DNA of 55,350 nt from an uncultured Anaerolineales bacterium (GTDB taxonomy: Bacteria; Chloroflexota; Anaerolineae; B4-G1; SLSP01). Location of the stretch: NCBI GenBank assembly GCA_964388385.1, contig CAYMAQ010000003.1, forward strand, positions 1 to 55,350, written 5' to 3'. This document shows positions 21,772 through 49,750 of this stretch, one piece after another. Below the pieces are notes generated by a model. That model did no database searches, was not told where the DNA came from, and saw nothing but the letters and a program-made list of their open reading frames with translations. The translations under genes and the position numbers were made by a program. How positions within the stretch are numbered: the stretch's first letter is position 1; every line of letters begins with the position of its first letter.

Positions 21772-21772
21772 C

Positions 21773-23062: not shown

Positions 23063-23328
23063 CTCACTCCTCAAAAATCCCGCTCCAATTGAACACTACC
23101 ACGTCAAGGATAATCCGACCCAAGCCGGCATAATCTCTGACAGGCCTATGGGATCGATTAGCCAACGCTTAACGGTCTCGTAACAAACAATTTCGTTGCA
23201 GAAACTTGTTTTCTTAACACATTTGTTATGAACACAACTGACACGGACCCGTAACTTCGATTTGAGAGGATCATAGTATAGTAAGAATGCGTTCATTTCA
23301 ACGACCTGGACTTGAAAAGGGGGCATGT

Positions 23329-29100: not shown

Positions 29101-29154
29101 ATTCCTTTGTGTCTCGCAAGCCCCCATCCAAAAACAGAGAAAAAAGGAGGAACG

Positions 29155-30966: not shown

Positions 30967-31094
30967 GTGGATGAGAAGAGGCGTTTTACTTTTGGCCTGA
31001 AATACCATTTCGGGGCGGCTTCTGAGTCAGACAAAAGAACTTTGACGGCGTGACTTGGCATCTCCGGTGACGACCCTCGAACCCGTAACCAGAT

Positions 31095-31123
31095 TTGTGT
31101 TTCTCTAGATGAAGTTCTATAAT
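31095..31123 (+). promoter_or_regulatory. Sigma70-like promoter giving a ~200-nt leader
   Basis: TTGTGT, 17-nt spacer, TATAAT. Confidence 0.45.
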
Positions 31124-31329
31124 AATAGTGTGAGGGTAGCGGAGAGCAGGGAAACCTTCACATCCCAGGAAACTTGGACGATCTGGATAGCTTCGAAATC
31201 CTGCATCGCCCCCCTCGGCGCCGAGAGGTTTAGTCTGGTATCGGACGCGATCTACCTGGGCATCGACGTGGACCTCGAACGATGAGCGTGGTGTTATTCT
31301 GGAGAAGTCTATTGCGAAAGGAGAGGACG

Positions 31330-32415: not shown

Positions 32416-32416
32416 G

Positions 32417-33352
32417 ATGTCTCAGACATCCCCACAGAATCGATCGTCAAGACCGAATACCTTTGTGACTGTGTTGAAGGTGCTGTTTCGACTCATCATC
32501 GTGATACTTTTTGGCGTGCTCATCGGTGCCGGGCTTTACTATGGCGTGCCTTGGGTATATCGCAACCTCATCCAGCCCGTTCAGAACAACACCGCCGAGA
32601 TTCAATCCCTTCAGTCTGAGCTGGATCGAGTCCAAACCCAGTTACAGGAACAGGCCTCCGATCAGAAAGATCGGGCAGACGCCTTGGACGACAGAGTAGA
32701 GAGACTGCAGGGGACGACAGAGGCCCATGCCCAGGCGCTTGACACGGCGGAGGCGCAACTGTCCACCCTCGAACCTGGCTTGGAGTCAGTCTCTCAGACA
32801 CTCAATGATCAAGGTGTCACGATAAGCGAACTCAGCGAGGAACAAGCTGCGGTTTTGGAACGCCTCGACGACCAAGAGGAAGAACTGGCACAACAGGAGG
32901 TAGCATTGGATGCGTTGGAGACAGATCTGACCACCCAGCTCGCTGAACTCAACGTCGCCTACCAAGATGTGCTTTCCACCACCGAGCCCCTGGTGCAGCG
33001 TCTGGCGTGGCTGCAGATCGCCCAGGACCTTCTGAAGGTTCGCATTATGCTGCTGGAGAACAATCCCGGCGTGGCTGTTGACACGATCAATATCGCACTC
33101 GAGCATCTCAACGCAGCAGTAGCTCTTGAACCGGACATAGCTCCCACGGCAACCGATCTGCGAGACAGAATGACGACGTTGAGTACGCTGATCGAGGAGC
33201 GATCCTTCCGGGTCACGCCAACGCTTGAGGCTCTGTGGGTCGACGTAATCAGCAGAGTGCTCCCTGAGGCGCCGACGTTCTCGACACCCACCCCCACAAG
33301 CACACCCTTTGTCACGCCAACACCGACACCCACGCCTGCTCCCGAAGGATGA
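32417..33352 (+). CDS. Membrane-anchored coiled-coil protein with Thr/Pro-rich tail
   Basis: N-terminal TM helix (IIVILFGVLIGAGLYYGV), a long heptad region and a C-terminal TPTPTSTPFVTPTPTPTP tail. The start lies 2 nt after the upstream stop. Confidence 0.6.
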   Translation: MSQTSPQNRSSRPNTFVTVLKVLFRLIIVILFGVLIGAGLYYGVPWVYRNLIQPVQNNTAEIQSLQSELDRVQTQLQEQASDQKDRADALDDRVERLQGTTEAHAQALDTAEAQLSTLEPGLESVSQTLNDQGVTISELSEEQAAVLERLDDQEEELAQQEVALDALETDLTTQLAELNVAYQDVLSTTEPLVQRLAWLQIAQDLLKVRIMLLENNPGVAVDTINIALEHLNAAVALEPDIAPTATDLRDRMTTLSTLIEERSFRVTPTLEALWVDVISRVLPEAPTFSTPTPTSTPFVTPTPTPTPAPEG

Positions 33353-37906: not shown

Positions 37907-39868
37907 ATGCACGAACTCTACAAGCCGCGGTTCCGACCGCTGCCGTTAGGGAGCGTCCATCCCACGGGTTGGCTTAAAAATCAGCTGCGCATCCAGGCCG
38001 AGGGGATAAGTGGGCATTTGGATGAGTTCTGGCCCGATGTCCGGGACAGCCAATGGTTCGAGGGAGATGCCGAAGCCTGGGAGCGCGCGCCTTACTGGCT
38101 CGATGGAATCATCCCGCTGGCTTACACCCTTGACGATCCGGCCCTCAAAGAGAAGGTCAGACGATACATGGACCTCATCATCGAGCACCAACAAGATGAC
38201 GGTTGGCTGGGCCCGCGGACGATGATTGCGGCGTCGGGACAATCCGCGCAGCCCCGTTATGACCTCTGGGGACAGATACTCGCCACCAAGGTGCTGATGC
38301 AGTATACAGAAGCTACGGGGGACGAGCGGGGGACGACCGCGCTGGCGCGCCTGCTTCGTGGCATCGATCGAACGCTGGATCGAACACCGCTCTTCAACTG
38401 GGGGCAGTTCCGCTGGTTCGAAGCCCTGCTGGCAATCTTTTGGCTGTACGAAAAGCAGGGAGGCATTTGGCTGCTTGATCTGGCGGCAAAGCTCCACGCC
38501 CAGGGCTTTGACTGGGGAGCTTTCTTCTCATCGCCCGCCGGGTGGCCCGCGGCTGCCCCTACTCCGAAGGGACGCTGGAACTATATGAGCCACGTCGTCA
38601 ACAATGCGATGGCGCCGAAGGCGCACGCGCTTTGGTGGCGCCTCAGCGGAGACGAACAGGATCGAGCAGCGGTCTATGAGATACTCAAAAAGCTCCATTC
38701 TCACCATGGGATGGTCACTGGCGTGGTCACTGGGGACGAATGCCTGGTTGGCAAGAACCCCATCCATGGAACCGAGCTTTGTTCGGTCGTGGAACTGGCT
38801 TACTCGCTTGAGGTTCTCGTCTCGATCTTGGGTGATCCGATCTTCGCCGATCAATTGGAGAGGGTGATTTTCAACGCGCTGCCGGCGACCTTCTCACCGG
38901 ATATGTGGTCTCACCAGTACGACCAACAGGTCAATCAGGTGGAATGCAGCATTCGCGATGACCGCATCTGGAGCACCAACGGTCCCGAGTCCAACATCTT
39001 CGGCGTAGAGCCAAACTACGGCTGCTGTACGGCCAATCTGAGCCAGGGATGGCCTAAGTTCGCCGCCCATCTCTGGATGGTTATGGAGGGCGTGGGGAGG
39101 GAGAACGAAGGTCTGGCAGCCACGGCCTACGCACCTTCGACTGCCGAGACGATGATTCAGGGGGTTCCCGTAAGCGCAGAGATCGACACCGAGTACCCAT
39201 TCCGCGACGAAATACGTGTCCACGTCGACACCAAAACCCCGGTACGTTTCCCACTTCTACTGCGGGTTCCGGAATGGAGCAAAGATCCTATAATCCGACG
39301 AGCGGATGGCTCGGAAACCCCGTTGAATCCGGGTTCGTTCCATCGGATCGAACGCACGTGGAAGGGAAAATCGGAACTCATTCTCCGCTTCCCAATGCCG
39401 ACCTACTATTGGCGCGGATTCAGAAACGCAACCGCGGTGCATCGGGGACCGTTGGTATACGCACTCAAAGTCGGGGAGCGATGGGAGCGAGTTCACGAAG
39501 ACGAGCCCTACCGCGAGTTACCTCACGGCGACTGGGAGGTCTACCCGACCACACCTTGGAACTACGCTTTGGTACCGGATGAGACCACCGCAAAGCTTGA
39601 CCTGATATTCGAGACCCATCCAATGGGTGACTGTCCCTTCTCTCCTGAGGGCGCACCGGTCACAGCGCGGGTTAAAGCACGCCGGTTGCCCGATTGGCAA
39701 ATCGAGCACGGATCGACCGACGAGACCCCAATGAGCCCGGTCTCCTCGGAAGAGCCGGCGGAGACAGTAACCCTCATCCCTTACGGCTGCACGAACTTGC
39801 GCATTACCGAGTTCCCAACCACGGATATCGTCATCAAGGACAGGAAAGGAGCGCCTGATGGATCGTGA
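37907..39868 (+). CDS. Glycoside hydrolase family 127-like (beta-L-arabinofuranosidase/DUF1680)
   Basis: 653 aa. The N-terminal GWLKNQL pattern and EPNYGCCTANLSQGWPKF cysteine motif are typical of GH127. Confidence 0.7.
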   Translation: MHELYKPRFRPLPLGSVHPTGWLKNQLRIQAEGISGHLDEFWPDVRDSQWFEGDAEAWERAPYWLDGIIPLAYTLDDPALKEKVRRYMDLIIEHQQDDGWLGPRTMIAASGQSAQPRYDLWGQILATKVLMQYTEATGDERGTTALARLLRGIDRTLDRTPLFNWGQFRWFEALLAIFWLYEKQGGIWLLDLAAKLHAQGFDWGAFFSSPAGWPAAAPTPKGRWNYMSHVVNNAMAPKAHALWWRLSGDEQDRAAVYEILKKLHSHHGMVTGVVTGDECLVGKNPIHGTELCSVVELAYSLEVLVSILGDPIFADQLERVIFNALPATFSPDMWSHQYDQQVNQVECSIRDDRIWSTNGPESNIFGVEPNYGCCTANLSQGWPKFAAHLWMVMEGVGRENEGLAATAYAPSTAETMIQGVPVSAEIDTEYPFRDEIRVHVDTKTPVRFPLLLRVPEWSKDPIIRRADGSETPLNPGSFHRIERTWKGKSELILRFPMPTYYWRGFRNATAVHRGPLVYALKVGERWERVHEDEPYRELPHGDWEVYPTTPWNYALVPDETTAKLDLIFETHPMGDCPFSPEGAPVTARVKARRLPDWQIEHGSTDETPMSPVSSEEPAETVTLIPYGCTNLRITEFPTTDIVIKDRKGAPDGS

Positions 39869-41069
39869 AACCTGGCGAGAAACGGTGGGGATGTTGCCGG
39901 TCTTCGATACCCACACGCATCTGAATAAGCCCGGCGTTCCGATTCCAGCTCAGAGTTTCTGGGATATCGCTCACTATTTCTGGTTTCAACAGGAGCTGAG
40001 GTCGGTGGGGTATCCCTCCAACGCACCCGAGCTTCCCGAAGAGACCCGGATCGATGCCTTCGTAGAAGCCTTTAACGCCGTACGTAACACGGCGTGGCAT
40101 CTCATCGTGCGTCGCATCTGCAAAAACCTCTACGATGTGCCGCTGACCGATCAGAAGGGACGCGCTACGCCGGACCACGTTCGGGACGTCGATGCTGCCA
40201 TCCGGGCATCTTCGCAGCAGCCAGGATGGTCCAAGTCGGTGATCGACCGACTTGGGATCCGACGTATCACCGTGAACAACATTGCCGACAGCAAATTTCC
40301 CAGGTTACCCGGAGTCGGCGTCTCGGTACCCACTTGGGACGAGCTACAGACGTGGTCTGACAAACTTATGAAATCTACACGTCCGGAGTGGGTACTCAAG
40401 GAAGCGCAAGCAGCTATCGAGGCCACAATCTCTCGCCTCAAGGATCAGGGAATCCGAGGCATGCGGGTGGATGCTGACATCTTCGAAGCCCAGGGGAAAG
40501 CAGCCGTCAATCTGCACAATCCGCCGCACACTACGCCGCTTGAGCAGTGGCAGGCAGAGGCACTCCTCATCCACCGCCTCCTCGATCTCCTTGGTGATTA
40601 CGGTATGTTTGCGCAGTTCTTCCTTGGCATTGAGCGGGACGTCACCCCCCATACCGCGATGGCGGTCAACGATCCAAGGCGAATCATCAATCTCTATCCT
40701 CTTTTCGAAGTCCATCCTTGCGACTTCGAGTTGGTGGTAGGTGCACCGCAGAACAATATGGACACCGCCCAGGCCGCCCGGATTTATCCGAACGTCTATG
40801 CCGGCGGGCTCTGGTGGTACAATTTCCGTAACAGCACATACCGACAGACGATGCAAGTACGTTTGGAAGCGGTGCCGGCAGGCAAAAGCGCCCTGGTCGC
40901 GTCGGACGCTCGGTGCATCGAATGGTGCTATGGGAAAATTCTCCTGGTCAAGCGGTTACTGGCAGACTTCCTCTATGATCAGATGGACCGAGGATGGATT
41001 AATGAGACGGATGCGCTGTGGGTTGCGCGCGAATGGCTCCACGATGCGGCGGCTCGCCGGTATATCTGA
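39858..41069 (+). CDS. Amidohydrolase-fold protein (uronate-isomerase-like)
   Basis: FDTHTHL metal-binding start of a TIM-barrel amidohydrolase. 11-nt overlap with the GH127 gene. The precise family is uncertain. Confidence 0.5.
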   Translation: MDRETWRETVGMLPVFDTHTHLNKPGVPIPAQSFWDIAHYFWFQQELRSVGYPSNAPELPEETRIDAFVEAFNAVRNTAWHLIVRRICKNLYDVPLTDQKGRATPDHVRDVDAAIRASSQQPGWSKSVIDRLGIRRITVNNIADSKFPRLPGVGVSVPTWDELQTWSDKLMKSTRPEWVLKEAQAAIEATISRLKDQGIRGMRVDADIFEAQGKAAVNLHNPPHTTPLEQWQAEALLIHRLLDLLGDYGMFAQFFLGIERDVTPHTAMAVNDPRRIINLYPLFEVHPCDFELVVGAPQNNMDTAQAARIYPNVYAGGLWWYNFRNSTYRQTMQVRLEAVPAGKSALVASDARCIEWCYGKILLVKRLLADFLYDQMDRGWINETDALWVAREWLHDAAARRYI

Positions 41070-41216: not shown

Positions 41217-42278
41217 TCAGTGCGGATGCTGTGTCTCTGACTCACCGGTGACCACGGCCCGAAAAAGATGGCACTCCCACAGCCTTTGTGCGGCATCCAG
41301 GTCGATGACCTCCCAGGGCATGCAGAGGACCTTAAACGTCTCGGGATCGTAGGCAGCGTGACGGGCAATCCATCGTCCAGGGGGTGGGCCTGCCAGTGTC
41401 CAGAGCGGTTCCAGATTCATCTCCACCTTCTGAAACAACGCCGGATGCGCTAACAGGGTCCTCAACAGCCCGAAGAGTCCAGGCGGGCCCTCCGGCAGCG
41501 GCGGATCGACGAGGGGAACCAGTGTGTCAATAGGAACCGGCTTGTCCGTATATGCAAACAATCCACGCGCTAAGGTTACGACCTGGGTTTCACTCAGCGA
41601 AGGCGAGAGCGCCCGCAGATACCACAAAGCGTGAAGATGCAGAAACCGATCATCCGCCAACAAAGCGGAGAGCACCTGCTCGGCGAGTGTGTCGCCATAA
41701 CGCCACAGCACATAGTCGACCTGTTGTTCCTCCTCATCACTTTTGAAAAGAGCATCGAGGTCGCCCGTTGAGACCTGTCTGCCAACGGCATCGGTCGGTT
41801 CACCCTTACGATACGTGCGCAGTTCCGAAAGCCCATCGATCGATACGGTGAACACCTCGCCCTCGACGCGGGTGATGACCCCGATCTGTGGGACGTACGT
41901 TCGCCCGAGGGCCGGACTGGGTATAGCAAAAATGGCGCGATCTCCGGCTCCCCACGTCTCGGCCGGATCCCAGAATCGGACGGATGGCGTATCCCTTCGG
42001 ACGCGGACTGAGGCGTCACCCGTCAGTTGCGGACCTGATCGAAGTCGAGAGCGAATGAGCTCCCGAACCAGGGCTGTGAGCGTACATGCCTCTTTTTCTG
42101 AACGGATGAACACGGCAAGGCGCGAAAGGTCCGGTCGGGTCACACTGAAGAATTGAGTCCAATAGCGGTGATAGAAGAGCGTATTGTGCCGAAAACGACC
42201 TAACGCCATCTTCCGGGAAGGCCTGCTGTCCCGCTCTTCCGGCCTAAGAGCATCGAGCCCAGGACTGAAAGGCCACAT
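41217..42278 (-). CDS. Partner protein S1 of the methyltransferase-like module (unknown family)
   Basis: 353 aa counted from the ATG at 42278, which is 10 nt after the P1 stop and preceded by GAGGAG. The ORF-track TTG start at 42317 would overlap P1 by 29 nt. Paralog of 45726..46685: shared TLTAL.R..IR.RLR.G, VRFWDP..W..GD.A.F, W(Y/F)LR(A/S)L, Q(V/L)VTLAR, YDP.T..V(L/I)C. Confidence 0.7.
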   Translation of the reverse strand: MWPFSPGLDALRPEERDSRPSRKMALGRFRHNTLFYHRYWTQFFSVTRPDLSRLAVFIRSEKEACTLTALVRELIRSRLRSGPQLTGDASVRVRRDTPSVRFWDPAETWGAGDRAIFAIPSPALGRTYVPQIGVITRVEGEVFTVSIDGLSELRTYRKGEPTDAVGRQVSTGDLDALFKSDEEEQQVDYVLWRYGDTLAEQVLSALLADDRFLHLHALWYLRALSPSLSETQVVTLARGLFAYTDKPVPIDTLVPLVDPPLPEGPPGLFGLLRTLLAHPALFQKVEMNLEPLWTLAGPPPGRWIARHAAYDPETFKVLCMPWEVIDLDAAQRLWECHLFRAVVTGESETQHPH

Positions 42279-42288
42279 ATCTCCTCGC

Positions 42289-45200
42289 CTAGACACTATC
42301 AACCGGGAGAGATCCAACGCCCCGCTCCGCCACCATTGACCTATGGGTGAGAACGCAAGACGTTTTACCGCCCCGTTTTGCCGTCAGTTTTCGCGCCATC
42401 TTCACATAAACCGCATAGGGATCGCGAAAGGGCTGATCTTCCGAACCTGGCACGAATCGAGCGGCCCTGCTTAGTTCTCGTTCAGAGATCTTGGGCACCT
42501 GACCGATCACGGCATCGAATCCCGGATCATCGGCCCAGGTTCGATGCTCGAGGTCGATAAAAGCATCGATAAACATCAACGACCAATGAAAACAAGCCCC
42601 GGAAGCCTGAGAGCGCGCCAACAGCGCTTGCATTTCATCATCGAGAACGGCCTCGCCTTGGAGAACCTGCAGCAAAGAGCCCCACCACCGATCGAGCAAG
42701 TTCTTGGCTTCACCGTCACCTAAGACAGCTTGAACGTGCACGTCCAAATACTGTCGATAGGGACGTAAAATCTGCTCGGCGCGCTCAAATTGCTTCATAC
42801 TCCAGCGGACGTCCAAAGCCGAGGTATTGACCCGATCGACAACGGAATACATCGTACTCGCACCCTCGAATAACCGTGCCATCTCCAGAGGCGCTTGCTC
42901 CAGGGCGCGAAGTGAATCCAGGTCCGTACCGATCAAACTGTTTCCCATTCGAAGCCGGTGATTGAAAAAGACAAAAGGCGCACCCTTCACAAAGGTCCTT
43001 AGCCAAAGGCCGACCTGCGTCAGGTCGATCGCGACCGGGTCGCGGTCCACTCCGTAGATGCAGTGCTGGGCGATAAGCCGCCGCATAACAGCCACATCAC
43101 TAAGGAAGTATGCCTCGATGTCGATACCTTGTCGACCAAGTTCACCCGCCACGTCATGCCGAACCCGCTCGAATAGACGATGCAGCGGGTTCCAACGCCA
43201 CGGCACGTCGGGATGTTCATCGTGATAGGCTTGCATCTGCTGGATGACGCCATCGGTAATCACATCCAACGCACTGAGTAAAAACGTCCCGGTTCCCATC
43301 GCGGGGTCCAAGACCCGCAGCCCAAGCAGCGCATCACAGGCCGCACGGGAAACCGTTTCGAGTGACGCCTGCACCTCAGCGCGATCCCTTGCATCAAGCG
43401 TCCGCTGCAGCCTGCGGCGCAAGGTGACCACCCGATCCATCGCCCTGGCAAACTGCGCACCGCGATGCTCGAGTAAGGGCTTAAGAACCTGAGCGGCGAC
43501 ATCCGTAGCCACATAGTCCGGGATGCCCACTCGCCCGTGACCGCTGGCATCAGAGGCTGAATCGATGAACATAACCTCACCGCTGGCAGCGTCGATCACC
43601 CGGAGATCGATATCCAGCAGAGGCGCGAGAACAGCGCTCAGTTCGTATGCACTGAAACTCGCGTAATCGACATCGCGCTGAAGCGTATCCAATACCTCTG
43701 CTAGCACAGCGTCGCTCAGGCGATGTTCGGCGATAAACGCATGCTCGGAATAAGCCTCGGGATCAAAGAAGACGGGGCCGTACTGCGGAAGATTTTTCAA
43801 CGCGTCCCCGGCGTTCACACGATGCAGCATTGAGAGCAGAATGTCATAGTGCGGCGTCGTATAGAGTCCGACGCTTGGCGGGATACCTCCCTCAACGCAG
43901 ACATCCACCCAAGACAGCAAAGACTTGAGACTGTGCGGTCGGTATTCCGGGTCATCAACAGGCAGAAGGAACCTGGCTTCGGCCACAAAGAGGAATAGAA
44001 TCCGGGCCAAAAGGGACAAACTGGCGCGCTTAATGAACTGCAGGCTTTCCGCATCCTCGTCGGAGATATCAAGTCGCCGATTGCGATAGGCCACAAATCC
44101 GCCGGCGATTGCCGGAAAGACCTTTTGGGCAATACACGTGCGCAGGTAGACCCGACTCTCCTGTTTTCGCGCGGGTGAGGACTCATAGAGGCGATCGAGA
44201 AAACTCCCACCCTCCCCGTCAACGACAAAAGCATCGCGCCTAAAGAGCATCCACCATTGACGAAGTAACACCCACTGAGAAGGGGTCAGGGAGTCGCACT
44301 CGCTCAACCGCTCAAACAGAGGACCGAGGTCCACTTCATGAAATTCCGTAACGATACTGTTCGCTCGGCGGGTGAACAGCCGCCACTTTCTTCCATTGGT
44401 CAGGATCCCCCACGACACATGATGGCGCATTAACGCGCGAACGATCTGATAGCTGGGCGTTGACATTTCATCCTTCAGACTATCCGGATGCCGCCACCAG
44501 CGGGACTCGGGGGACGAGTGTGCATCCAGTGAGCCTGACCAAGCTGCGGTCTGAACTAGAGCAAGGCCCCAGCCGGAAACGGAGCACGGACCGCCTCGCT
44601 GCGTATAGAGAGCCGCACAAGCGGCTTGATCTCGACAGAGTATGTGCTGCTTCGGCTGAGCCGTACGCGATCGCCGGGCTGGCACCTGGGAATCCAGAAC
44701 CGATAACGGGACCGAAGACCACCCTAATGCCGTCAACAAGGGCTGAACCAGCGCGGTTTCGGTCCTCTGGTCATCCCATTCATGCCCCTGGCTTCGCGCT
44801 CGAGACCACAGGGCGCGAATAGCCTTATAAATGATATTGAGATCCGCATCCCAATCCGGGTCGCGTTTCAGCTTACGTTGCAGATATTGATTGGGAAAAA
44901 GAGCACCGGGCTGGAGCAAAACACCCTCGCGGGACGTCTGGTCCTCAGAGAGCTTGGTAAGCCGGTGAATGGGAATCTGCCCCTGATCGAACAGGGAATC
45001 CAACAATATCGCCAGCGCAGCATCCAGTACGTCTGGACTCATCGGGGGGAAGAATTCGCGCAAACATCCGTACTCCCCCCCCTGATGGTAAAGCATAATA
45101 AACCGGGGGTCGGCAGCTAGGGACTGACGGACTCGCGGAAGAAAGGATGCTTCTTGAACTTCGAAGAGTGTATCGACAACCTGCTCACTGACCATCGCAG

Positions 45201-45534
45201 GAGAAAGGGTAGTAGGGGCGCGATCGATTTCAGCAGCGACACGGACATTTTCGCCTCCTTTCAACCTGAGAGTTAGGATTTTGAAGTTTCCCTGGACGAC
45301 ATTTTGGGCGTTTTGAGCGTTTACGACATCGCCCACGAGGCCGTTGAATCGCAAGCGCGTACCAGGAGGATATTGCCCGCCGGGTGCGAAGACAGGCGTC
45401 CCATTGTCAGTTGTCAAATAAGATCGTATCGCTTCGCGGGCCAGGTTCGCCAATGACACCGGGGCTTCCTGTTCGCGAATCAAATCAGCAAGTCGATCGA
45501 GATTGATATCTTGAATGGGAATCCGTTGAGACAC
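42289..45534 (-). CDS. P1: Eco57I/PglX-like (COG1002-type) gamma-class N6-adenine DNA methyltransferase homolog; catalytic tetrapeptide degenerate, no C-terminal TRD
   Basis: 1081 aa, GTG start after GGAGG. Ordered motifs: ALVQPLLTALGW; WGILTNGRKWRLF (44374-44412); LFLFVAEARFLLP; SAM motif I VLDPAMGTGTFL (43279-43314); IYGVDRDPVAIDL (43021-43059); RMGNSLIG; FHWSLMF...GFDAVIGQVPK (42490-42519). Confidence 0.8.
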   Translation of the reverse strand: MSQRIPIQDINLDRLADLIREQEAPVSLANLAREAIRSYLTTDNGTPVFAPGGQYPPGTRLRFNGLVGDVVNAQNAQNVVQGNFKILTLRLKGGENVRVAAEIDRAPTTLSPAMVSEQVVDTLFEVQEASFLPRVRQSLAADPRFIMLYHQGGEYGCLREFFPPMSPDVLDAALAILLDSLFDQGQIPIHRLTKLSEDQTSREGVLLQPGALFPNQYLQRKLKRDPDWDADLNIIYKAIRALWSRARSQGHEWDDQRTETALVQPLLTALGWSSVPLSVLDSQVPARRSRTAQPKQHILCRDQAACAALYTQRGGPCSVSGWGLALVQTAAWSGSLDAHSSPESRWWRHPDSLKDEMSTPSYQIVRALMRHHVSWGILTNGRKWRLFTRRANSIVTEFHEVDLGPLFERLSECDSLTPSQWVLLRQWWMLFRRDAFVVDGEGGSFLDRLYESSPARKQESRVYLRTCIAQKVFPAIAGGFVAYRNRRLDISDEDAESLQFIKRASLSLLARILFLFVAEARFLLPVDDPEYRPHSLKSLLSWVDVCVEGGIPPSVGLYTTPHYDILLSMLHRVNAGDALKNLPQYGPVFFDPEAYSEHAFIAEHRLSDAVLAEVLDTLQRDVDYASFSAYELSAVLAPLLDIDLRVIDAASGEVMFIDSASDASGHGRVGIPDYVATDVAAQVLKPLLEHRGAQFARAMDRVVTLRRRLQRTLDARDRAEVQASLETVSRAACDALLGLRVLDPAMGTGTFLLSALDVITDGVIQQMQAYHDEHPDVPWRWNPLHRLFERVRHDVAGELGRQGIDIEAYFLSDVAVMRRLIAQHCIYGVDRDPVAIDLTQVGLWLRTFVKGAPFVFFNHRLRMGNSLIGTDLDSLRALEQAPLEMARLFEGASTMYSVVDRVNTSALDVRWSMKQFERAEQILRPYRQYLDVHVQAVLGDGEAKNLLDRWWGSLLQVLQGEAVLDDEMQALLARSQASGACFHWSLMFIDAFIDLEHRTWADDPGFDAVIGQVPKISERELSRAARFVPGSEDQPFRDPYAVYVKMARKLTAKRGGKTSCVLTHRSMVAERGVGSLPVDSV

Positions 45535-45725
45535 CTATCCTCCAAAGATGGTAAAATAGATCGTAGACCGGAGGTCCATCATGCTGAGAGCGCACCCAGA
45601 AGTCCAAACAACTGGGCACTCTGCCCTTAGTATAGGGTGGAATGAATCAACGGGGATTAAATTCAGGTTACGGGGCGGTTACATTCAGCTAGAAGTAAAC
45701 GATCTCGAATCCCAAACAGAATCCA

Positions 45726-46685
45726 TCAAGGCGATCCATAGACTGCGGTCGCTAGCAGGCCCAACTGCCAGAGCAGCTCGACCTGGTTTGAGTTCAGATG
45801 ATCGCCGTTTTCGCAGATGACCTCATACGTCCGGGGATCGTAAACCGCGAACTTGGCCTCGTAATTCCCAGGGGGTGGGGATACGAGAACCCAACGAGTA
45901 TAGCGCCCGGCTTCAACGCGAGAGAATAGGCCGGGACGCTCTGACATAGCCAAGCCAAACCCAAACGATGTAGGCGGATCGTCAGCCTCGGTTAACGGCA
46001 TCAGACTGAGAAGTTCAGATAGCCGCACGCCGTCCGATGACTCGATTAGCAGCGTGCGCGCCAGAGTCACAAGCTGTGCTTCGTTGGGATACTTGACCAG
46101 CGATCGCAGAAACCAACGCCCTTCCCACTCAACAAATCGCCCATCCGAGCGCAGGGCAGCCAGAAGCCCTCCTATAATGTGAGGACCGTGCTGGAAAAGC
46201 ATATGATCGATCCGGGCTCGTTCGCTTCGAGATTGTCCGAGGCGGGCAATATAACGGTCTAAGGAGGCGCGCCATCTCGTGATCTCCGCATTGTCATGAC
46301 GGGCGGGCATTCCCCACATACGGGGCATCTCCTCCCCATCAATCTGAGCGATTAACGCCGTATCCATAACCCTTGCAACTTGACCGGCACGCGGCTCCTG
46401 TCTCAGTACACCGTGCCGCGTGTAGGTAACCGGAAAGACGGCCCAATCCCCGGGATGCCAGGCCTTCAAAGGGTCCCAGAACCGAACCACTCCCTCATCA
46501 GGAATCGGAATGAGATGACCCGACTCTTGCCCATATCGCAGACGGCCCCGAATCCAACGCCTTGCCAGGGCAGTGAGTGTGAATGCCTCACCTGCCTTGC
46601 GCATACGTCGAACGAAACGTTCGAGATCCACCTCAAAGACTCGAAATATCGTCCGATTCCGGGGAGACCTCAACGGAATGTTCAT
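45726..46685 (-). CDS. Partner protein S2 of the methyltransferase-like module (unknown family)
   Basis: 319 aa. Its ATG overlaps the P2 stop as ATGA (46682-46685). Paralog of S1. Confidence 0.75.
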   Translation of the reverse strand: MNIPLRSPRNRTIFRVFEVDLERFVRRMRKAGEAFTLTALARRWIRGRLRYGQESGHLIPIPDEGVVRFWDPLKAWHPGDWAVFPVTYTRHGVLRQEPRAGQVARVMDTALIAQIDGEEMPRMWGMPARHDNAEITRWRASLDRYIARLGQSRSERARIDHMLFQHGPHIIGGLLAALRSDGRFVEWEGRWFLRSLVKYPNEAQLVTLARTLLIESSDGVRLSELLSLMPLTEADDPPTSFGFGLAMSERPGLFSRVEAGRYTRWVLVSPPPGNYEAKFAVYDPRTYEVICENGDHLNSNQVELLWQLGLLATAVYGSP

Positions 46686-49600
46686 CGTCCTATGCTCCTG
46701 AGATGCTCGGGGGTCATCACCAGAGCGATACGCCCACCGGGAGAACGTACGAGCTGGTGCGCTAGTCTCTCAAAGAGGCCTGAACGATCCGCTGCCGATG
46801 GATGCACATCATCCGATCTCGAAACGGACAGAGACCCCACATGACGACCATGCTCAGGTCCAATCGTTGGAGGGCTGCCGATGACGACGTCAAATCCCGG
46901 GCGCACACCGTTCTCTGCGTGCCTGGGATCGTGGAAAACCTCCGGGAATACCAGATCCCAATGGATGAAGCCCTCTTGGATGCTCAGTTCCTCAGCACGG
47001 ATCAAGGCCCGATTCCACGCCGTCGGCCTTGATTCAACCGGTTGGTCGAGGAACCGCACAACATCAGACGCTCTTTGCAACAATCGAGTGACGTCCTCAT
47101 TTCCAACAAACTGGCTTAACCAGAGATCAAGAGCTGCCCTCTCCAGAGGCAGGGACTCTCTAGGGTCATCCAACCGTGAAATCCGTGCCCCCAATGAGGA
47201 AACCCCACCCATCATATCAAGATCGTGCTTTGATGGGAAGTCCAAATCCTGCAGACGTCCACCGAGAAGACTGTTACCCCGGCACAGGTGGCTCCCAAAT
47301 TGCATCTCCCCCCCTCCTCTCGCAAAGGCCCACAGGGAGAGATTAGCTTTTGCCAGGCTCACCGCGATCGGATCGATATCGACGCCATAGATGCACATCT
47401 TGGCGACCCGAGAGGCAATGAGGGCCAAGTCGTCGGGCCAACCGGGACGGAGGTTTAAGCCCAGACTCGACATTCGATGGCGAACGCGGTGCCGATCCGC
47501 AACCAGAGCCCGCAAAATCGGGTTCCAGGATTCAGGAAAATCGGGATGGGTTCGACAATAAGTTTGATACTGCGCAACCGCCCAATCGGTAATGACGTCC
47601 GCCGCTGCAATGAGAAAATGACCAGCCCCCATAGCCGGATCCAGGATCCGCACTCCCAGCAGCGCTTGCTCGGCAAGGTCTTCCGCTTTCGCAATGCGGG
47701 CCTGGACCGCAGGAGACTCACGATCCAAACGCCCTTCGCTCGTGCTCTGCTGCAGACGCATCAACTGATCCATGGCCTTCTCAAAATCCAGCGCCCGGGC
47801 CGAAAGAATCGGTCCTAACGCATCTTCGACAGTGGAGATAACCACGTAATCAGCCGTCGACTTTTCCGCGATTGCCCTTGGCTCGGTATGATTATCGAAC
47901 CAGGTGACTTCCCCGAGTGCGGCGTCGACGACCCACAATGCATTCTGTAGGAGTTCCCCACCGACCATACAGAGATGGCGCAAATCCATAGCAGCAAACA
48001 CGCTCTCGACCTCGCCCTCCACTGACAAAGTGTGTAGAACTTGGGCGATCACGTGGTCGCTCAATCGATGCCGTTCCAAAAAGGCGTGACTGGGCTCGGT
48101 TGCACCGAACAAGCCTCCCTCAATGCGTAAAAGCCCCAGCTCTGGAGCCCCATGGTCGAGTCGACGGAAAAGAGAACACACAGCATCATAACGCGGCGTG
48201 TTCGCTATCGAGGCGCTGAGCGGCGCACCACGGCGAATCATGTGCTCAGCCCAGTGTGCCAACGTCGTTAAACTCGAGGCGCGATAAGCCGCGTTATCCA
48301 TAGGAAGCAGGCGGCGAGTCTCTGCGTAGAGAACAACCAGTAATTTATAGACCATCGACAAACTCGCCCGTCCCACTTCCTGAAGAGAAGCGTCATTCTC
48401 TTCTCGTACAGAGAGTACTTGGTGACGATAGGCGACAAATCCCCCCGCGATCTTCGGCAGCACACGGTCCAAAACCAGATCCCGCAGTCGCTTTACCTTT
48501 CGCCTCGTCCTGCTCGCGAACGTTTCCTGGAGTATTTCGATGAGCGCTCGCCCCTCCGGAGTGCGCACATAGGTATCCCTTCGACACAACAACCACCAGC
48601 GTTGAAAAGCCCTCCACGCTTCTTGGGAAATTTCCCCCGTGGATGCCATCTGATCGATAACCGGGGTCAGGTCAACCTCATAAAACTCCGCGGCGGTGCT
48701 GCCGATGTCGGGATTTCCCCATCGGCGACTGTACAAACGCCATCGCCTTCCATCAGTGACCCCACCCCATCGCACGTCACCCAACGTCAAATCGGCGATA
48801 GTGTTCAGGGCAAGTTCGTCAAACTCGTGAGAAGCCTCTCCAGGATCCGTATTGAAAGAAAGCCCGGTGTTCAAAACCATGGGCGCAGACAGATTATCGG
48901 TTTTTCCATCCTGGAGAGAGTGCCGCAGGGCTTGCTGCTGCTCATCACTGATGCACAGAGCCCACCGGGCATAAACATCTCCACGATTTCGATCGCAACC
49001 TGTGGAATCGGGATCCGTGATTTTTTGCAGACGGAGAGGTTGCCAGCCCAAAGCATCGAGTAGGGGTTGGACAAAGCACGTCTGGATGTCTTCCGGGAGG
49101 CACGCACTCTCCGAGTTCGACGCTGGCTGCCACAGTGAGCAAAACGTAGACAGCATAGACCGAGCCCTTTTCTCCCAATCCAGATGCTCGGACCATAGTT
49201 CCTCGAGGCTATCATCGGGGAGGAAATGAAGCGGACGGATCTGCGGAACCGTTGCGAGATGCGACATAGAATCCGGAGGGACTGCAGGAGACGCGGGGAA
49301 CGTGTCGGGATCGAGGTCGCGAATATCCGAAAGGTTGAGCCAGGGTGCCTCTTCCCGCAGGGCGTCTCCGTGCGTAGCAAGCACACCGTGGACCAGAGAG
49401 TCTGGAACCGCAAAACTCAGATCTCCGTCAGGATTTGGCGTCGAAAATGGCGCCGGGGATTGCGTCGCAACACACCGCCGAGATCCATCCCGCATCTCGA
49501 GATCAACGACAGCGAACCCACCTTGCCTGGGGTTCCCCCCCTCACGAACCTCCACAACGCGGGCCACATCCCCATCGATACCCACCCAATCACCAGCTTC

Positions 49601-49750
49601 AAACCGGCTTTCAGGTTGGAAAGGTCGGAGATTGCCTGGAATAGGAGCGTGCTGACGCACGTGATCCCACAGGATCTGTCGAACCGTTTTGAGAGGATCG
49701 GTTGCAGGATCGCATCGCTGTAAAGCTTGTATCAGGAACTCGGAATCCAT
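46682..49750 (-). CDS. P2: Eco57I/PglX-like (COG1002-type) N6-adenine DNA methyltransferase homolog; motif IV is SPPT, no C-terminal TRD
   Basis: 1022 aa. FVQPLLDALGW; WGGVTDGRRWRLY; LVVLYAETRRLLP; motif I ILDPAMGAGHFL (47612-47647); IYGVDIDPIAVSL; CRGNSLLG; FIHWDLVFPEVF...GFDVVIGSPPT (SPPT at 46865-46876). Colinear with P1. Confidence 0.8.
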   Translation of the reverse strand: MDSEFLIQALQRCDPATDPLKTVRQILWDHVRQHAPIPGNLRPFQPESRFEAGDWVGIDGDVARVVEVREGGNPRQGGFAVVDLEMRDGSRRCVATQSPAPFSTPNPDGDLSFAVPDSLVHGVLATHGDALREEAPWLNLSDIRDLDPDTFPASPAVPPDSMSHLATVPQIRPLHFLPDDSLEELWSEHLDWEKRARSMLSTFCSLWQPASNSESACLPEDIQTCFVQPLLDALGWQPLRLQKITDPDSTGCDRNRGDVYARWALCISDEQQQALRHSLQDGKTDNLSAPMVLNTGLSFNTDPGEASHEFDELALNTIADLTLGDVRWGGVTDGRRWRLYSRRWGNPDIGSTAAEFYEVDLTPVIDQMASTGEISQEAWRAFQRWWLLCRRDTYVRTPEGRALIEILQETFASRTRRKVKRLRDLVLDRVLPKIAGGFVAYRHQVLSVREENDASLQEVGRASLSMVYKLLVVLYAETRRLLPMDNAAYRASSLTTLAHWAEHMIRRGAPLSASIANTPRYDAVCSLFRRLDHGAPELGLLRIEGGLFGATEPSHAFLERHRLSDHVIAQVLHTLSVEGEVESVFAAMDLRHLCMVGGELLQNALWVVDAALGEVTWFDNHTEPRAIAEKSTADYVVISTVEDALGPILSARALDFEKAMDQLMRLQQSTSEGRLDRESPAVQARIAKAEDLAEQALLGVRILDPAMGAGHFLIAAADVITDWAVAQYQTYCRTHPDFPESWNPILRALVADRHRVRHRMSSLGLNLRPGWPDDLALIASRVAKMCIYGVDIDPIAVSLAKANLSLWAFARGGGEMQFGSHLCRGNSLLGGRLQDLDFPSKHDLDMMGGVSSLGARISRLDDPRESLPLERAALDLWLSQFVGNEDVTRLLQRASDVVRFLDQPVESRPTAWNRALIRAEELSIQEGFIHWDLVFPEVFHDPRHAENGVRPGFDVVIGSPPTIGPEHGRHVGSLSVSRSDDVHPSAADRSGLFERLAHQLVRSPGGRIALVMTPEHLRSIGR

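What the first reader, a model, noticed from the sequence alone, without database searches (positions are those of the whole stretch)
41217..49750. Tandemly duplicated two-gene module: giant methyltransferase-like protein plus an unassignable partner, with no other R-M/BREX components
Two consecutive minus-strand gene pairs, P2-S2 (49750 to 45726) and P1-S1 (45534 to 41217), have the same architecture. Each has a >1000-aa protein carrying the ordered Eco57I/PglX-type motif set, followed immediately by a 320-350-aa protein. The P2/S2 junction is an ATGA overlap at 46682-46685; the P1/S1 junction is a 10-nt gap or a 29-nt overlap, depending on the S1 start. P1 and P2 are colinear but clearly diverged. 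S1 and S2 share several blocks (TLTAL.R..IR.RLR.G; VRFWDP..W..GD.A.F; W(Y/F)LR(A/S)L; Q(V/L)VTLAR; YDP.T..V(L/I)C), yet I cannot place them in any family I know. The window contains no PglZ, BrxC/BrxL, helicase, specificity subunit or stand-alone nuclease. The flanks are sugar-catabolism genes and a liv ABC operon. A duplicated, diverging pair of pseudo-enzyme-like proteins with dedicated partners is what I would expect of an uncharacterised DNA-sensing, defence or epigenetic-reader system rather than a classical R-M system.
Basis: partly seen in the sequence, partly recalled or inferred. Interest (0 to 1): 0.88.

Follow-up and report, generated by a model that had tools for sequence, protein, structure and literature searches.

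The report
Dead restriction-enzyme pairs with winged-helix partners
An Anaerolineae chromosome carries two ancient tandem copies of a gene pair, each made of a restriction-modification enzyme relative that has lost its active-site motifs and its DNA-recognition domain plus an unannotated, probably DNA-binding partner; what the pair does is unknown.

Summary
P2-S2 (49750-45726) and P1-S1 (45534-41217), all on the minus strand, are real paralogous pairs: P1/P2 are 29% identical (E 6e-117) and S1/S2 32% (E 4e-43). One correction: S1 starts at 42278 and is 353 aa.

P derives from solitary active type IIG enzymes (34-39% identity). Every P homologue examined lacks the PD..ExK nuclease motif, MTase motif X (YYTP), a canonical motif IV (QVPK and SPPT here) and the whole C-terminal recognition domain. 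Motif I is kept in almost all of them.

S is not the missing C-terminal half and has no Pfam, NCBIfam or PADLOC family. Its confident model (pLDDT 93) shows winged helices and a small beta-barrel. Its first ~200 aa are homologous to a ~190-aa N-terminal extension found only in P (hhalign 98%).

The order liv operon-P2-S2-P1-S1-GH127 recurs in every sufficiently long relative locus, all from Anaerolineae MAGs or metagenomes. The cassette is therefore vertically inherited, not a variable island. It evolves much faster than its neighbours (P1 ~41% against LivF ~82%).

Distant S relatives sit in R-M, helicase and DISARM-like loci.

Most likely this is a non-catalytic P:S DNA-binding or DNA-sensing complex exapted from a defence system. 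Its output is unknown.

The parts
46682..49750 (-). P2: 1022-aa degenerate type IIG/PglX-like protein
   Evidence: ORF. Pfam Eco57I 1.3e-7; PADLOC DrmMI 2.9e-25 and type IIG 1.2e-22 as partial matches. 29% identical to P1 over the full length.
45726..46685 (-). S2: 319-aa partner with winged helices and a small beta-barrel; basic (pI 9.5)
   Evidence: ORF. No Pfam, NCBIfam or PADLOC family. AF2 pLDDT 93, pTM 0.88. Only winged-helix domain-level fold matches. pI values.
42289..45534 (-). P1: 1081-aa degenerate type IIG/PglX-like protein
   Evidence: ORF with GTG start and SD. PADLOC DrmMI 1.7e-44. 34% identical to the active type IIG P0053 over residues 207-1033. AF2 model pLDDT 83; best fold matches PglX/BrxX and MmeI.
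41217..42278 (-). S1: 353-aa partner, paralogue of S2 (start revised to ATG 42278)
   Evidence: 32% identical to S2, E 4e-43. Start supported by the SD and by the orthologue N-terminus.
45013..45522 (-). P1 N-terminal module (aa 5-174): helices, beta-barrel, long helix and beta-hairpin; homologous to the first ~200 aa of S; followed by a low-confidence linker (aa 175-207)
   Evidence: hhalign of the P1 N-terminus profile against the S family: 98.1%, E 1.2e-13. Single-sequence comparison: 85%, E 6e-6. Absent from active relatives, which begin at P1 residue ~190-212. pLDDT below 50 for 175-207.
49301..49750 (-). P2 N-terminal module (aa 1-150), same module as in P1 and S
   Evidence: hhalign of the P2 N-terminus profile against the S family: 94.7%, E 5.6e-8. 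P1 N-terminus against P2 N-terminus: 99.6%.
46059..46646 (-). S2 residues 14-209: the module shared with the P N-termini (Arg-rich helix 37-51; VRFWDP..W..GD barrel; RFVEWEGRWFLR hairpin)
   Evidence: hhalign alignment ranges. Secondary structure. Invariant residues.
43279..43311 (-). P1 MTase motif I, LDPAMGTGTFL (retained)
   Evidence: Alignment of 50 homologues. Coordinates.
42484..42504 (-). P1 degenerate motif IV, GQVPKIS, in place of GNPPY
43507..43530 (-). P1 degenerate motif X, VGIPDYVA, in place of the invariant GSYYTPDY
44539..44658 (-). P1 degenerate PD-(D/E)XK region: QPKQHILC replaces RPDYAL and LVQTAAW replaces IAEAKYW
47612..47644 (-). P2 MTase motif I, LDPAMGAGHFL (retained)
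46859..46879 (-). P2 degenerate motif IV, GSPPTIG (no aromatic residue)
47840..47860 (-). P2 degenerate motif X, STADYVV
48857..48982 (-). P2 degenerate nuclease-motif region (GDVYARWAL ... PMVLNTGLS; no ExK)
46682..46685 (-). ATGA overlap of the P2 stop and the S2 start (translational coupling)
   Evidence: Sequence read directly.
42279..42291 (-). P1 stop codon (42289-42291) followed by the 10-nt spacer (42279-42288) before the S1 start; the spacer carries GAGGAG
   Evidence: Sequence read directly.
45535..45725 (-). 191-nt spacer between the two pairs; no promoter-like hit on the coding strand and no operator shared with the region upstream of P2

Best explanation
The cassette encodes two paralogous, co-translated P:S protein pairs. 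Together they most likely form a non-enzymatic nucleic-acid-binding or sensing complex descended from a type IIG-centred defence system.

Shown:
- P keeps the fold order of a type IIG/PglX-like enzyme: a nuclease-like domain, a helical connector and the N-terminal part of a gamma-class Rossmann domain.
- Every P homologue examined lacks the PD..ExK nuclease residues, MTase motif X (YYTP), a canonical motif IV, the end of the MTase domain and the whole target-recognition domain.
- P has gained an N-terminal module on a ~35-residue low-confidence linker. This module is homologous to the first ~200 residues of S.
- S is a compactly predicted protein with winged helices and a beta-barrel. Two of its segments are strongly basic.

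Inferred:
- S replaces the lost recognition domain as the DNA-binding part.
- The shared module couples S to P, or lets both engage the same ligand.
- The two pairs act together as a hetero-oligomer, with P1-S1 as the minimal unit.
- P contributes a scaffold or ligand pocket (the motif I region is among its best conserved parts) but performs no methylation or cleavage.
- The output is binding-based: either a roadblock, regulator or chromosome 'reader', or a sensor for effectors encoded elsewhere.

I cannot decide between a retained immune role and a domesticated host role. I lean slightly towards domestication, because the locus is strictly syntenic and carries no effector.
For: Paralogy and coupling:
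-.
- P-to-S spacing of -31 to +22 nt in orthologous loci, against 77-191 nt between pairs.

Descent from active type IIG enzymes:
- 34-39% identity to 1316-1443-aa proteins carrying N6_Mtase, Eco57I, TaqI_C and MmeI_Mtase domains.
- Best fold matches are PglX/BrxX (E 7.5e-6) and MmeI.

Loss of function motifs:
- RPD..AEAK, GSYYTPDY and NPPY are invariant in the 12 full-length active relatives that align across these motifs (P0045-P0056).
- The first two are lost in all ~35 P1-type and 7 P2-type sequences.
- Motif IV drifts (N/S/T/A/Q/R, then PP or VP, then W/H/L/R/T/A/S/K...).
- P ends ~50 residues after motif IV, whereas P0053 continues for ~500 more.

S is not the missing half.

Shared module: hhalign 98.1% (E 1.2e-13) for P1 and 94.7% for P2.

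S model and charge:
- pLDDT 93.
- pI 11.65 for residues 1-66 and 11.3 for residues 129-196 of S2.
- Invariant arginines on helix 37-51.

Selection:
- Complete P ORFs of 989-1129 codons and the fixed order P2-S2-P1-S1 are kept in lineages whose LivF is only ~82% identical.
- The N-module (56%) and the motif I half of the Rossmann domain (58%) are the best conserved parts of P1.

Defence ancestry:
- Distant S homologues lie beside an active P-related giant MTase plus Mrr_N, UvrD and an RNaseT-DinG-DpdF helicase (L011).
- Others lie in UvrD-S-helicase loci (L014, L025) or beside a type III R-M system (L026).
- The S module is also fused to a coiled-coil protein directly upstream of DrmA, DrmB and DrmC (L013).
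Against: - No P:S contact, DNA binding or ligand binding was tested. Everything beyond the anatomy is inference.
- S1 is acidic overall (pI 5.9), so basic charge is not a general property of the S proteins.
- Fold searches gave no match better than E 0.04 for S, so 'winged helix' rests on domain-level similarity and the secondary-structure pattern.
- Motif X is lost, so SAM binding is doubtful even though motif I is kept.
- Some P1 orthologues still have NPPW.
- The cassette carries no effector, and P2 has decayed in one sublineage. Weak or lineage-specific function is therefore possible.
Confidence: 0.45

Rival explanations
1. The cassette is still a stand-alone anti-phage or anti-plasmid system. 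The dead P proteins and S act as sensors of foreign DNA, or as decoys for phage anti-restriction proteins. The effectors are encoded elsewhere in the genome, or defence works by binding alone.
For: - All detectable relatives of both parts are defence-type. P's best PADLOC models are DrmMI and type IIG.
- Distant S homologues sit with UvrD, DinG/DpdF-like helicases, Mrr_N and type III R-M, and the S module sits at the DrmE position of a DrmABC locus.
- P/S evolve about twice as fast as their neighbours (P1 38-42%, P2 32-34% against LivF/G 80-86%). One pair has been lost in one sublineage. Both patterns are typical of conflict genes.
- The top structural match is PglX, including its Ocr-bound form.
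Against: - No effector, helicase, nuclease or toxin is in the cassette or its conserved flanks.
- Strict synteny holds across lineages.
- No relatives were found in the phage, plasmid or viral-contig collections.
- Without a working methyltransferase the cassette has no way of its own to mark self DNA.
Confidence: 0.28
2. This is an active two-subunit R-M enzyme of the type IIB/BcgI-BsaXI kind. P is the combined nuclease-methyltransferase subunit and S is a novel separate specificity subunit.
For: - The layout of a large RM-like gene followed by a ~320-350-aa gene mimics BcgI and BsaXI. RM.BsaXI appears among the PDB profile and fold matches.
- P lacks a TRD, so an external specificity factor is plausible.
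- Some P1 orthologues keep NPPW.
Against: - In the window, P1 has QVPK and P2 has SPPT at motif IV.
- Motif X (YYTP) and the nuclease PD/ExK residues are lost in all family members.
- The orthologues that keep NPPW have lost the motif II aspartate (GVA/GVS).
- P ends before the last part of the MTase domain.
- S has no Methylase_S/HsdS signal, and its fold search returned no specificity-subunit structure.
Confidence: 0.07
3. The cassette is an eroding remnant with no present function: an old type IIG system on its way to loss.
For: - Catalytic motifs and the TRD are gone.
- Divergence is fast.
- P2 is fragmented and S2 truncated to ~214 aa in the L001-L003 lineage.
Against: - Uninterrupted ORFs are kept in about 35 clusters at 90% identity, at 37-74% identity to P1.
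- Gene order and tight P-S coupling are retained.
- Conservation is uneven, with 56-58% in the N-module and motif I region.
- The inactivating changes are shared by P1 and P2, so they predate a duplication that was itself retained.
Confidence: 0.08
4. The cassette is a ligand-sensing regulator tied to the adjacent liv amino-acid transport operon, using the remnant SAM pocket and the winged helices of S.
For: - The cassette always lies directly downstream of, and on the same strand as, the liv operon.
- The motif I region is the best conserved part of P.
- S has winged-helix-like domains.
Against: - Synteny is equally conserved on the other flank (unknown 403 aa, GH127, URO-D), so adjacency to liv is not specific.
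- Motif X is lost.
- No shared operator-like sequence was found upstream of the two pairs.
- No regulator of >1000 aa of this kind is known to me.
Confidence: 0.07

Closest known systems
Single-chain type IIG/IIL R-M enzymes (Eco57I/MmeI family)
   Same: - Same domain order: PD-(D/E)XK-like domain, helical connector, gamma-class N6-adenine MTase domain.
- 34-39% identity over ~830-870 residues to active 1316-1443-aa members.
- MmeI is among the fold matches.
- Motif I and the WGILTNGxxWRL block are conserved.
   Different: - The nuclease PD/ExK residues, motif X (YYTP) and motif IV (NPPY) are lost.
- The protein is truncated ~50 residues after motif IV, so it has no TaqI_C-type recognition domain.
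- It has an extra ~190-aa N-terminal module that is absent from all active relatives.
- It is always followed by an S gene, whereas the active relative P0053 is solitary.
BREX methyltransferase PglX/BrxX
   Same: - Best structural matches for the P1 model (8q56 E 7.5e-6, 8c45, 9ewz).
- A large gamma-class MTase-like protein. PglX's dependence on partner proteins is from my own knowledge.
   Different: - NCBIfam BREX MTase models score 16-27 bits against cut-offs of 400-900.
- No PglZ, BrxC, BrxL, BrxA or BrxB is in the window.
- Catalytic motifs and the TRD are lost.
DISARM (DrmMI, and the DrmE position)
   Same: - The best PADLOC hit of P1 is a DrmMI model (1.7e-44, partial).
- The S module occurs at the N-terminus of a 1308-aa coiled-coil protein directly upstream of DrmA (2.6e-64), DrmB (6.6e-32), DrmC (1.2e-20) and a Dam-type MTase in L013.
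   Different: - No DrmA, DrmB, DrmC or DrmD is in the window.
- The matches to DrmMI cover only part of the model.
- P0177 does not match any PADLOC DrmE model.
Two-subunit type IIB enzymes (BcgI, BsaXI: RM subunit plus S subunit)
   Same: - The gene layout: a large RM-like protein followed by a ~320-350-aa partner.
- RM.BsaXI appears among the profile and fold matches.
- The partner could functionally supply DNA recognition.
   Different: - S shows no HsdS/Methylase_S similarity in sequence, and its fold search returned no specificity-subunit structure.
- P is catalytically degenerate.
Prokaryotic winged-helix / HARE-HTH DNA-modification sensors (e.g. the DpnI-type wH domains described in PMC11037411)
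   Same: - S is predicted to contain winged-helix-like units, two of them very basic.
- Distant S-module proteins carry a Pfam HARE-HTH domain elsewhere in the chain (P0226, 6.7e-7).
- The genomic company is R-M or defence genes.
   Different: - Only 1 of 66 S-family members touches the HARE-HTH model, at E 0.084.
- No significant fold match was found.
- No evidence that S reads a modification.
Dead methyltransferase paralogues acting as cofactors (e.g. eukaryotic DNMT3L; from my own knowledge)
   Same: An MTase fold kept under selection after loss of its catalytic motifs, working through protein-protein or nucleic-acid contacts.
   Different: Analogy only: unrelated lineage, different MTase class, and no active partner MTase has been identified here.

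Membership tests
Type IIG R-M enzyme (Eco57I/MmeI-like) | PD-(D/E)XK catalytic residues in the N-terminal nuclease domain | tested here: not met
   Active relatives have RPDYAL...AEAKYW. P1 has QPKQHIL...VQTAAW and P2 has no ExK. The motif is lost in all P1- and P2-type orthologues.
Type IIG R-M enzyme (Eco57I/MmeI-like) | Gamma-class MTase motif X ((F/Y)YTP) | tested here: not met
   GSYYTPDY is invariant in the active relatives. P1 has VGIPDY and P2 has STADY. The motif is lost in every P-type sequence.
Type IIG R-M enzyme (Eco57I/MmeI-like) | MTase motif I (DPxxGxGxFL) | tested here: met
   LDPAMGTGTFL in P1 and LDPAMGAGHFL in P2, conserved in nearly all orthologues.
Type IIG R-M enzyme (Eco57I/MmeI-like) | Catalytic motif IV, (N/D)PP(Y/F/W) | tested here: not met
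   P1 has QVPK and P2 has SPPT. Orthologues are variable; a subset keeps NPPW but has lost the motif II aspartate.
Type IIG R-M enzyme (Eco57I/MmeI-like) | C-terminal target-recognition domain (TaqI_C-like) | tested here: not met
   P1 aligns to P0053 only up to P0053 residue 858 of 1354 and then ends. No TaqI_C hit in P or S. S is unrelated to the P0053 C-terminus.
Type IIG R-M enzyme (Eco57I/MmeI-like) | Pfam Eco57I (PF07669) above the gathering score | tested here: inconclusive
   P2 scores 32.3 bits against a cut-off of 25.3 (passes). P1 scores 23.0 bits (fails).
BREX | PglX scoring above the NCBIfam BREX MTase cut-offs | tested here: not met
   Best scores are 27.1 bits (cut-off 900) and 25.6 bits (cut-off 500).
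BREX | PglZ and BrxC (plus BrxL/A/B) in the locus | tested here: not met
   Pfam scans of 34 of the window's larger ORFs found none. None is in the orthologous loci either.
DISARM | DrmA helicase, DrmB (DUF1998) and DrmC next to the methyltransferase | tested here: not met
   Absent from the window and from the orthologous loci. Present only in the unrelated locus L013, which carries an S-module fusion.
Type I / type IIB specificity subunit (HsdS, Methylase_S) | Sequence or fold similarity of S to HsdS-type TRDs | tested here: not met
   No Pfam hit at E <= 1 for S2 and none relevant for S1. 0 of 66 family members hit Methylase_S. The Foldseek PDB list contains no specificity-subunit structure.
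HARE-HTH (PF05066) | Match to the Pfam model | tested here: not met
   1 of 66 S-family members at E 0.084. S1 and S2 have no hit. The ...D.RF....W.L... hairpin resemblance is from memory only.
Defence-island gene (generic) | Variable genomic neighbourhood, association with mobile elements, patchy distribution | tested here: not met
   Same flanks in all loci long enough to show them. GC of the cassette region is within the window's range. No relatives in the plasmid, phage or viral collections.
Functional protein-coding genes (versus pseudogenes) | Intact ORFs and conserved order across diverged lineages | tested here: met
   About 35 P1-type clusters, mostly 1058-1129 aa, at 37-74% identity to P1. 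The four-gene order is kept while LivF is ~82% identical. Exception: P2 has decayed in L001-L003.

The most novel reading that the evidence does not exclude
A restriction-modification or defence enzyme was inactivated in both activities, stripped of its recognition domain and fused to a new winged-helix/barrel module. It was then duplicated together with a free-standing copy of that module and fixed for a long time in the chromosome of an Anaerolineae lineage. The result would be a non-catalytic DNA 'reader' complex: a bacterial counterpart of dead-methyltransferase cofactors. On this reading the unannotated S family is a general DNA-sensing adaptor shared with several still-uncharacterised helicase-based defence systems (UvrD-S-RNaseT/DinG/DpdF loci and DISARM-like loci).
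Probability: 0.3. Interest if true: 0.8.

Novelty: new variant of a known kind. Interest (0 to 1): 0.6.

Why it matters
If P:S is a working non-catalytic complex, it would be a clear case of long-term exaptation of an R-M/defence enzyme in bacteria. It would also show what the type IIG/PglX scaffold can do without chemistry, which bears on the still unclear non-cleaving mechanisms of BREX- and DISARM-type systems. Independently of the function here, the S family is unannotated: 174 cluster representatives (one per 50%-identity cluster) match the S profile, none of the sequences scanned matches a Pfam, NCBIfam or PADLOC model, and every source name seen is 'hypothetical protein'. Its repeated placement next to UvrD, giant RNaseT-DinG-DpdF helicases, type III R-M and DrmABC marks it as a candidate shared sensor or adaptor of several undescribed defence systems. 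Those systems could be tested directly.

Tried and rejected
- Split-gene hypothesis: rejected. The S profile against the full-length active relative P0053 gives hhalign probability 0.5%, and P0053 is solitary.
- Family assignment of S: Pfam, NCBIfam and PADLOC on S1 and S2, Pfam on all 66 family members and a profile search of PDB sequences found nothing significant.
- Fold assignment of S: Foldseek against PDB and BFVD found nothing below E 0.04, only winged-helix-sized local matches. Domain-wise searches were not possible because the structure jobs were exhausted.
- Wider locus harvest: the genome contigs and metagenome contigs pattern scans returned only 2 and 7 loci because the back-translated patterns are narrow. 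The A3 alignment was too diverse to seed a scan. A true prevalence across Anaerolineae could therefore not be measured.
- Mobile origin: no S relative in viral contigs, phage records or plasmid records.
- Regulatory signals: promoter and terminator scans were no better than shuffled sequence. No shared operator was found between the two upstream spacers. No Rfam family lies near the cassette.
- Literature: searches on DISARM/DrmE, inactive type IIG and HARE-HTH found no description of this cassette or of the S family.
- L014 (568 aa) and L015 (747 aa) neighbours: they show no direct match to the S HMM. The link runs only through their homologues that matched the S profile weakly. The idea that 'a partner with its own S module precedes S' is suggestive outside the P-S case, not established.
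- dN/dS: not attempted. The available orthologues are 60-74% identical or less, so synonymous sites would be saturated.

Full report
**1. The observation**

The four minus-strand ORFs exist as described.
- P2: 46682..49750, 1022 aa.
- S2: 45726..46685, 319 aa.
- P1: 42289..45534, 1081 aa. It has a GTG start with GGAGG 5 nt upstream.
- S1: ends at 41217.

P1 and P2 align end to end at 29% identity, E 6e-117. The ATGA overlap of the P2 stop and the S2 start was read directly.

For S1 I prefer the ATG at 42278, which gives 353 aa and a 10-nt gap after the P1 stop. GAGGAG lies immediately upstream. The resulting N-terminus MWPFSPG matches the MRPFKPE of the 353-aa orthologue in L001.

The flanks are a liv-type ABC operon on one side and an unknown 403-aa gene, GH127 and URO-D genes on the other. 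Pfam scans of 34 of the window's larger ORFs found ordinary chromosomal genes. None is PglZ, BrxC/L, a helicase or HsdS. The only tRNA is at 17263-17337. GC content over the cassette (0.53-0.59) lies within the window's range.

**2. What P is**

Pfam sees only a weak Eco57I domain: P2 scores 32.3 bits and P1 23.0 bits against a cut-off of 25.3. PADLOC's best models are DrmMI and type IIG enzymes, matched in part. NCBIfam BREX PglX models score far below their cut-offs.

A database search with P1 found two kinds of relatives.
- About 35 clusters, mostly 1058-1129 aa, at 37-74% identity. Every one that carries a source organism name comes from an 'Anaerolineae bacterium' MAG.
- Proteins of 1316-1443 aa at 34-39% identity that carry N6_Mtase, Eco57I, MmeI_Mtase and TaqI_C domains.

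The pairwise alignment with one of the long proteins, P0053 (1354 aa), is informative.
- P0053 starts at P1 residue 207.
- It has RPDYAL...AEAKYW (a PD-ExK nuclease motif), GSYYTPDY (motif X), DPAMGSGHFL (motif I) and GNPPY (motif IV).
- It continues for about 500 residues beyond the point where P1 stops.

In alignments of 50 homologues, plus P2 orthologues taken from related loci:
- The nuclease motif and motif X are invariant in the 12 full-length active relatives that align across these motifs (P0045-P0056), and are lost in every P1-type and P2-type sequence.
- Motif I is kept in nearly all of them.
- Motif IV drifts. The window clade of P1 has QVPK/E. Other P1 orthologues have N/S/T/A followed by PP and then W/H/L/R. 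P2-type sequences have SPPT, SPPA, NPPV or RPPS.
- The P1 orthologues that keep NPPW have replaced the motif II aspartate (GVA or GVS instead of GVD).

P1 and P2 share the same truncation point, the same lost motifs and the same N-terminal extension (P1 N-terminus against P2 N-terminus: hhalign 99.6%). Inactivation therefore preceded the duplication. P2 has simply diverged faster since.

The AF2 model of P1 has pLDDT 83 and pTM 0.77. It best matches PglX/BrxX (E 7.5e-6), then MmeI, CamA and BsaXI. A profile search of PDB sequences gives TaqI, BsaXI and PglX. Plasmid-borne relatives are annotated type IIG enzymes, and all begin at P1 residue ~190-212.

P is thus a type IIG/PglX-like protein that has lost the conserved nuclease and methyltransferase motifs and has no target-recognition domain.

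**3. What S is**

S1 and S2 have no significant hit in Pfam, NCBIfam or PADLOC. The same holds for the 66 family members scanned individually and for a profile search of PDB sequences.

S is not the missing C-terminal half of a type IIG enzyme. The S profile against P0053 gives hhalign probability 0.5%.

An exhaustive profile search found 174 representatives at E <= 1e-3, 70 of them below 1e-30 and most of them 310-410 aa long. The few that carry a source name are 'hypothetical protein [Anaerolineae bacterium]'.

With a 66-sequence alignment, AF2 gives a confident compact model of S2: pLDDT 93, pTM 0.88. Its elements in order are:
- three helices and a strand (residues 8-69);
- a four-stranded barrel (81-125);
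- a long helical hairpin running into a beta-hairpin (132-193);
- a second helix/beta-hairpin unit (202-267);
- a small C-terminal element.

Foldseek found nothing significant. Only winged-helix-sized local matches appeared, such as Fur, LOTUS, Rpc34 and SelB. In the P1 model the equivalent barrel matches EF-P domain I and a chromodomain locally. Residues 1-66 and 129-196 of S2 have pI 11.65 and 11.3. S1 is acidic overall.

**4. The link between P and S**

The ~190-residue N-terminal extension is what distinguishes P from its active relatives. It is homologous to the first ~200 residues of S.
- P1 N-terminus profile against the S family: hhalign 98.1%, E 1.2e-13, 157 columns.
- P2 N-terminus profile against the S family: 94.7%, E 5.6e-8.
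- Single P1 sequence against the S profile: 85%.

In the P1 model this module is joined to the body by residues 175-207, which have pLDDT below 50. Among 29 P1 orthologues, the N-module (56% mean identity) and the motif I half of the Rossmann domain (58%) are the best conserved regions.

**5. Genomic behaviour**

Every related locus long enough to show it has the order liv operon, P2, S2, P1, S1. Most then continue with the unknown ~403-aa gene and GH127.
- Full cassettes: L004, L007, L008, L010 (where the P1 match falls in two pieces), L020.
- L028 holds S2-P1-S1 and a P2 cut off by the contig end.
- Partial views: L005, L006, L018, L019, L021-L023.

Best-hit scores assign each gene to the same positional type, so the duplication is older than these lineages. 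P-to-S spacing is -31 to +22 nt, whereas the pairs are 77-191 nt apart.

In L001-L003 (an Anaerolineae MAG), P2 is broken into fragments and S2 is cut to 214 aa, while P1-S1 are intact. P1-S1 is therefore the minimal unit.

Against the more distant loci, the neighbours and the cassette diverge at different rates.

| Gene | Identity to the window's copy |
|---|---|
| LivF/LivG | 80-86% |
| LivM | 75-78% |
| GH127 | 63-67% |
| P1 | 38-42% |
| S1 | 37-39% |
| S2 | 36-42% |
| P2 | 32-34% |

The cassette is fixed in place but evolves fast. No S relative was found in viral contigs, phage records or plasmid records.

**6. Relatives in other contexts**

More distant S homologues lie in defence-type neighbourhoods.
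- L011: a protein of more than 2301 aa, then Mrr_N, a UvrD/GajB-like helicase, the S-like gene, and a 1864-aa RNaseT-DinG-DpdF-like helicase. The core of the giant protein is 36% identical to P1 207-1016 and keeps RPDYAL, DPAMGSGHFL and NPPY.
- L025: UvrD, S-like, RNaseT...
- L014: 568-aa and 279-aa genes, S-like, and the same 1883-aa helicase.
- L026: type III Mod and Res, two small genes, S-like, PC4, and SocA/Panacea further on.
- L015: a 747-aa unknown protein overlapping an S-like gene.

The S module alone forms the N-terminus of a 1308-aa coiled-coil protein (P0177). That gene lies directly upstream of DrmA (2.6e-64), DrmB (6.6e-32), DrmC (1.2e-20) and a Dam-type MTase. The module also occurs in 520-740-aa proteins, some of which carry a HARE-HTH domain.

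The 568-aa and 747-aa neighbours in L014 and L015 belong to that 520-740-aa group by BLAST. They do not hit the S HMM directly. The recurring pattern 'a protein with an S module followed by S' is therefore suggestive rather than proven outside the P-S case.

The active close relative P0053 has no S neighbour.

**7. Interpretation**

Shown: the anatomy, the loss of motifs, the shared module, the ancient retained duplication, the synteny, the fast evolution, and the defence-type company of distant relatives.

Inferred:
- P and S form a complex, based on the tight gene coupling and the shared module.
- S supplies nucleic-acid binding in place of the lost recognition domain, based on its basic winged-helix-like units.
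- P acts as a non-catalytic scaffold or ligand pocket.
- The two pairs work together.

The output is unknown. Strict synteny, the absence of any effector and the absence of a self-marking activity favour a domesticated host role such as a reader, regulator or roadblock. Ancestry, fast evolution and the loss of one pair in a sublineage favour a continuing conflict role with effectors encoded elsewhere.

I give 0.45 to the non-catalytic binding-complex model as stated. The rivals are listed separately:
- a stand-alone defence sensor or decoy;
- an active type IIB-like enzyme with S as a specificity subunit (disfavoured by the motif losses);
- neutral decay (disfavoured by about 35 intact orthologue clusters and uneven conservation);
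- a liv-linked regulator (disfavoured because the other flank is equally conserved).

**8. Novelty and verdict**

Nothing in the libraries or in the literature I could search describes this cassette or the S family. P fails the defining tests for an active type IIG enzyme. The locus fails those for BREX and DISARM.

I class it as a new variant of a known kind: a catalytically degenerate, TRD-less type IIG derivative with a new partner family.

The finding is real and moderately to highly interesting. The more transferable result may be the S family itself, as a candidate adaptor or sensor in several uncharacterised helicase-based systems.

Noticed in passing
L011:1-14550; L025:2-4141; L014:293-9503: Recurrent arrangement UvrD-like helicase, S-like protein (~330 aa), then a giant (~1860-1880 aa) RNaseT/DEDDh + DinG + DpdF-like helicase fusion. 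In L011 it is preceded by an active type IIG-like protein of more than 2301 aa and an Mrr_N protein. It looks like an undescribed multi-gene defence system in which the S family is a core part.
   Followed up: partly
L013:8001-19099: A 1308-aa protein (S-like N-terminal module plus a long coiled coil) sits directly upstream of DrmA, DrmB, DrmC and a Dam-type methyltransferase, that is at the DrmE position of a DISARM-like locus. It matches no PADLOC DrmE model.
   Followed up: partly
L001:7727-10645 (also L002, L003, L009): In a sister Anaerolineae lineage P2 is a pseudogene (fragments, with an internal ~270-aa stretch missing). S2 is reduced to ~214 aa and lacks the N-terminal helices and barrel. 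P1-S1 stay intact. Three different 90% clusters (P0006, P0007, P0008) share the ~214-aa form, so the truncated S2 may itself be maintained.
   Followed up: partly
L026:127-8561: An S-like protein lies just downstream of a type III R-M pair (N6_N4_Mtase Mod, ResIII+RE_endonuc Res) and two unknown small genes. A PC4-like ssDNA-binding protein follows it directly, and a SocA/Panacea gene lies two genes further on.
   Followed up: no
window 17392-23074 (-): NurA (396 aa), Rad50/SbcC-like with a zinc hook (1079 aa) and an Mre11-like phosphoesterase (433 aa) form a cluster with no HerA-type ATPase recognised next to it. tRNA-Glu lies at 17263-17337.
   Followed up: no
window 13807-17226 (+): A 1139-aa BTAD + AAA_16 (STAND-type) + TPR protein: a large AfsR/LuxR-like signalling ATPase.
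   Followed up: no
window 39858-41069 (+): A 403-aa protein with no Pfam family, overlapping the end of the GH127 gene. It is conserved (67-75% identity) as the immediate neighbour of S1 in related loci (L001, L008, L028).
   Followed up: no
window 29107-33352 (+): An atypical 619-aa Hsp70/MreB-like ATPase is followed by a helix-hairpin-helix (HHH_3) protein with a coiled coil (377 aa) and another coiled-coil protein (311 aa). They may form an unusual module.
   Followed up: no
window 29-1811 (-), 2673-4599 (-) and 7145-10001 (-): Several tandem paralogue pairs elsewhere in the window: two ParA/CbiA-4Fe-4S proteins, two Nitro_FeMo-Co domain proteins and two LytR_cpsA_psr proteins.
   Followed up: no
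L010:11114-14547: The P1 orthologue of Anaerolineae MAG E05-002 matches in two pieces separated by ~285 nt that have no counterpart in P1. This could be an insertion, a masked stretch or a disruption.
   Followed up: no
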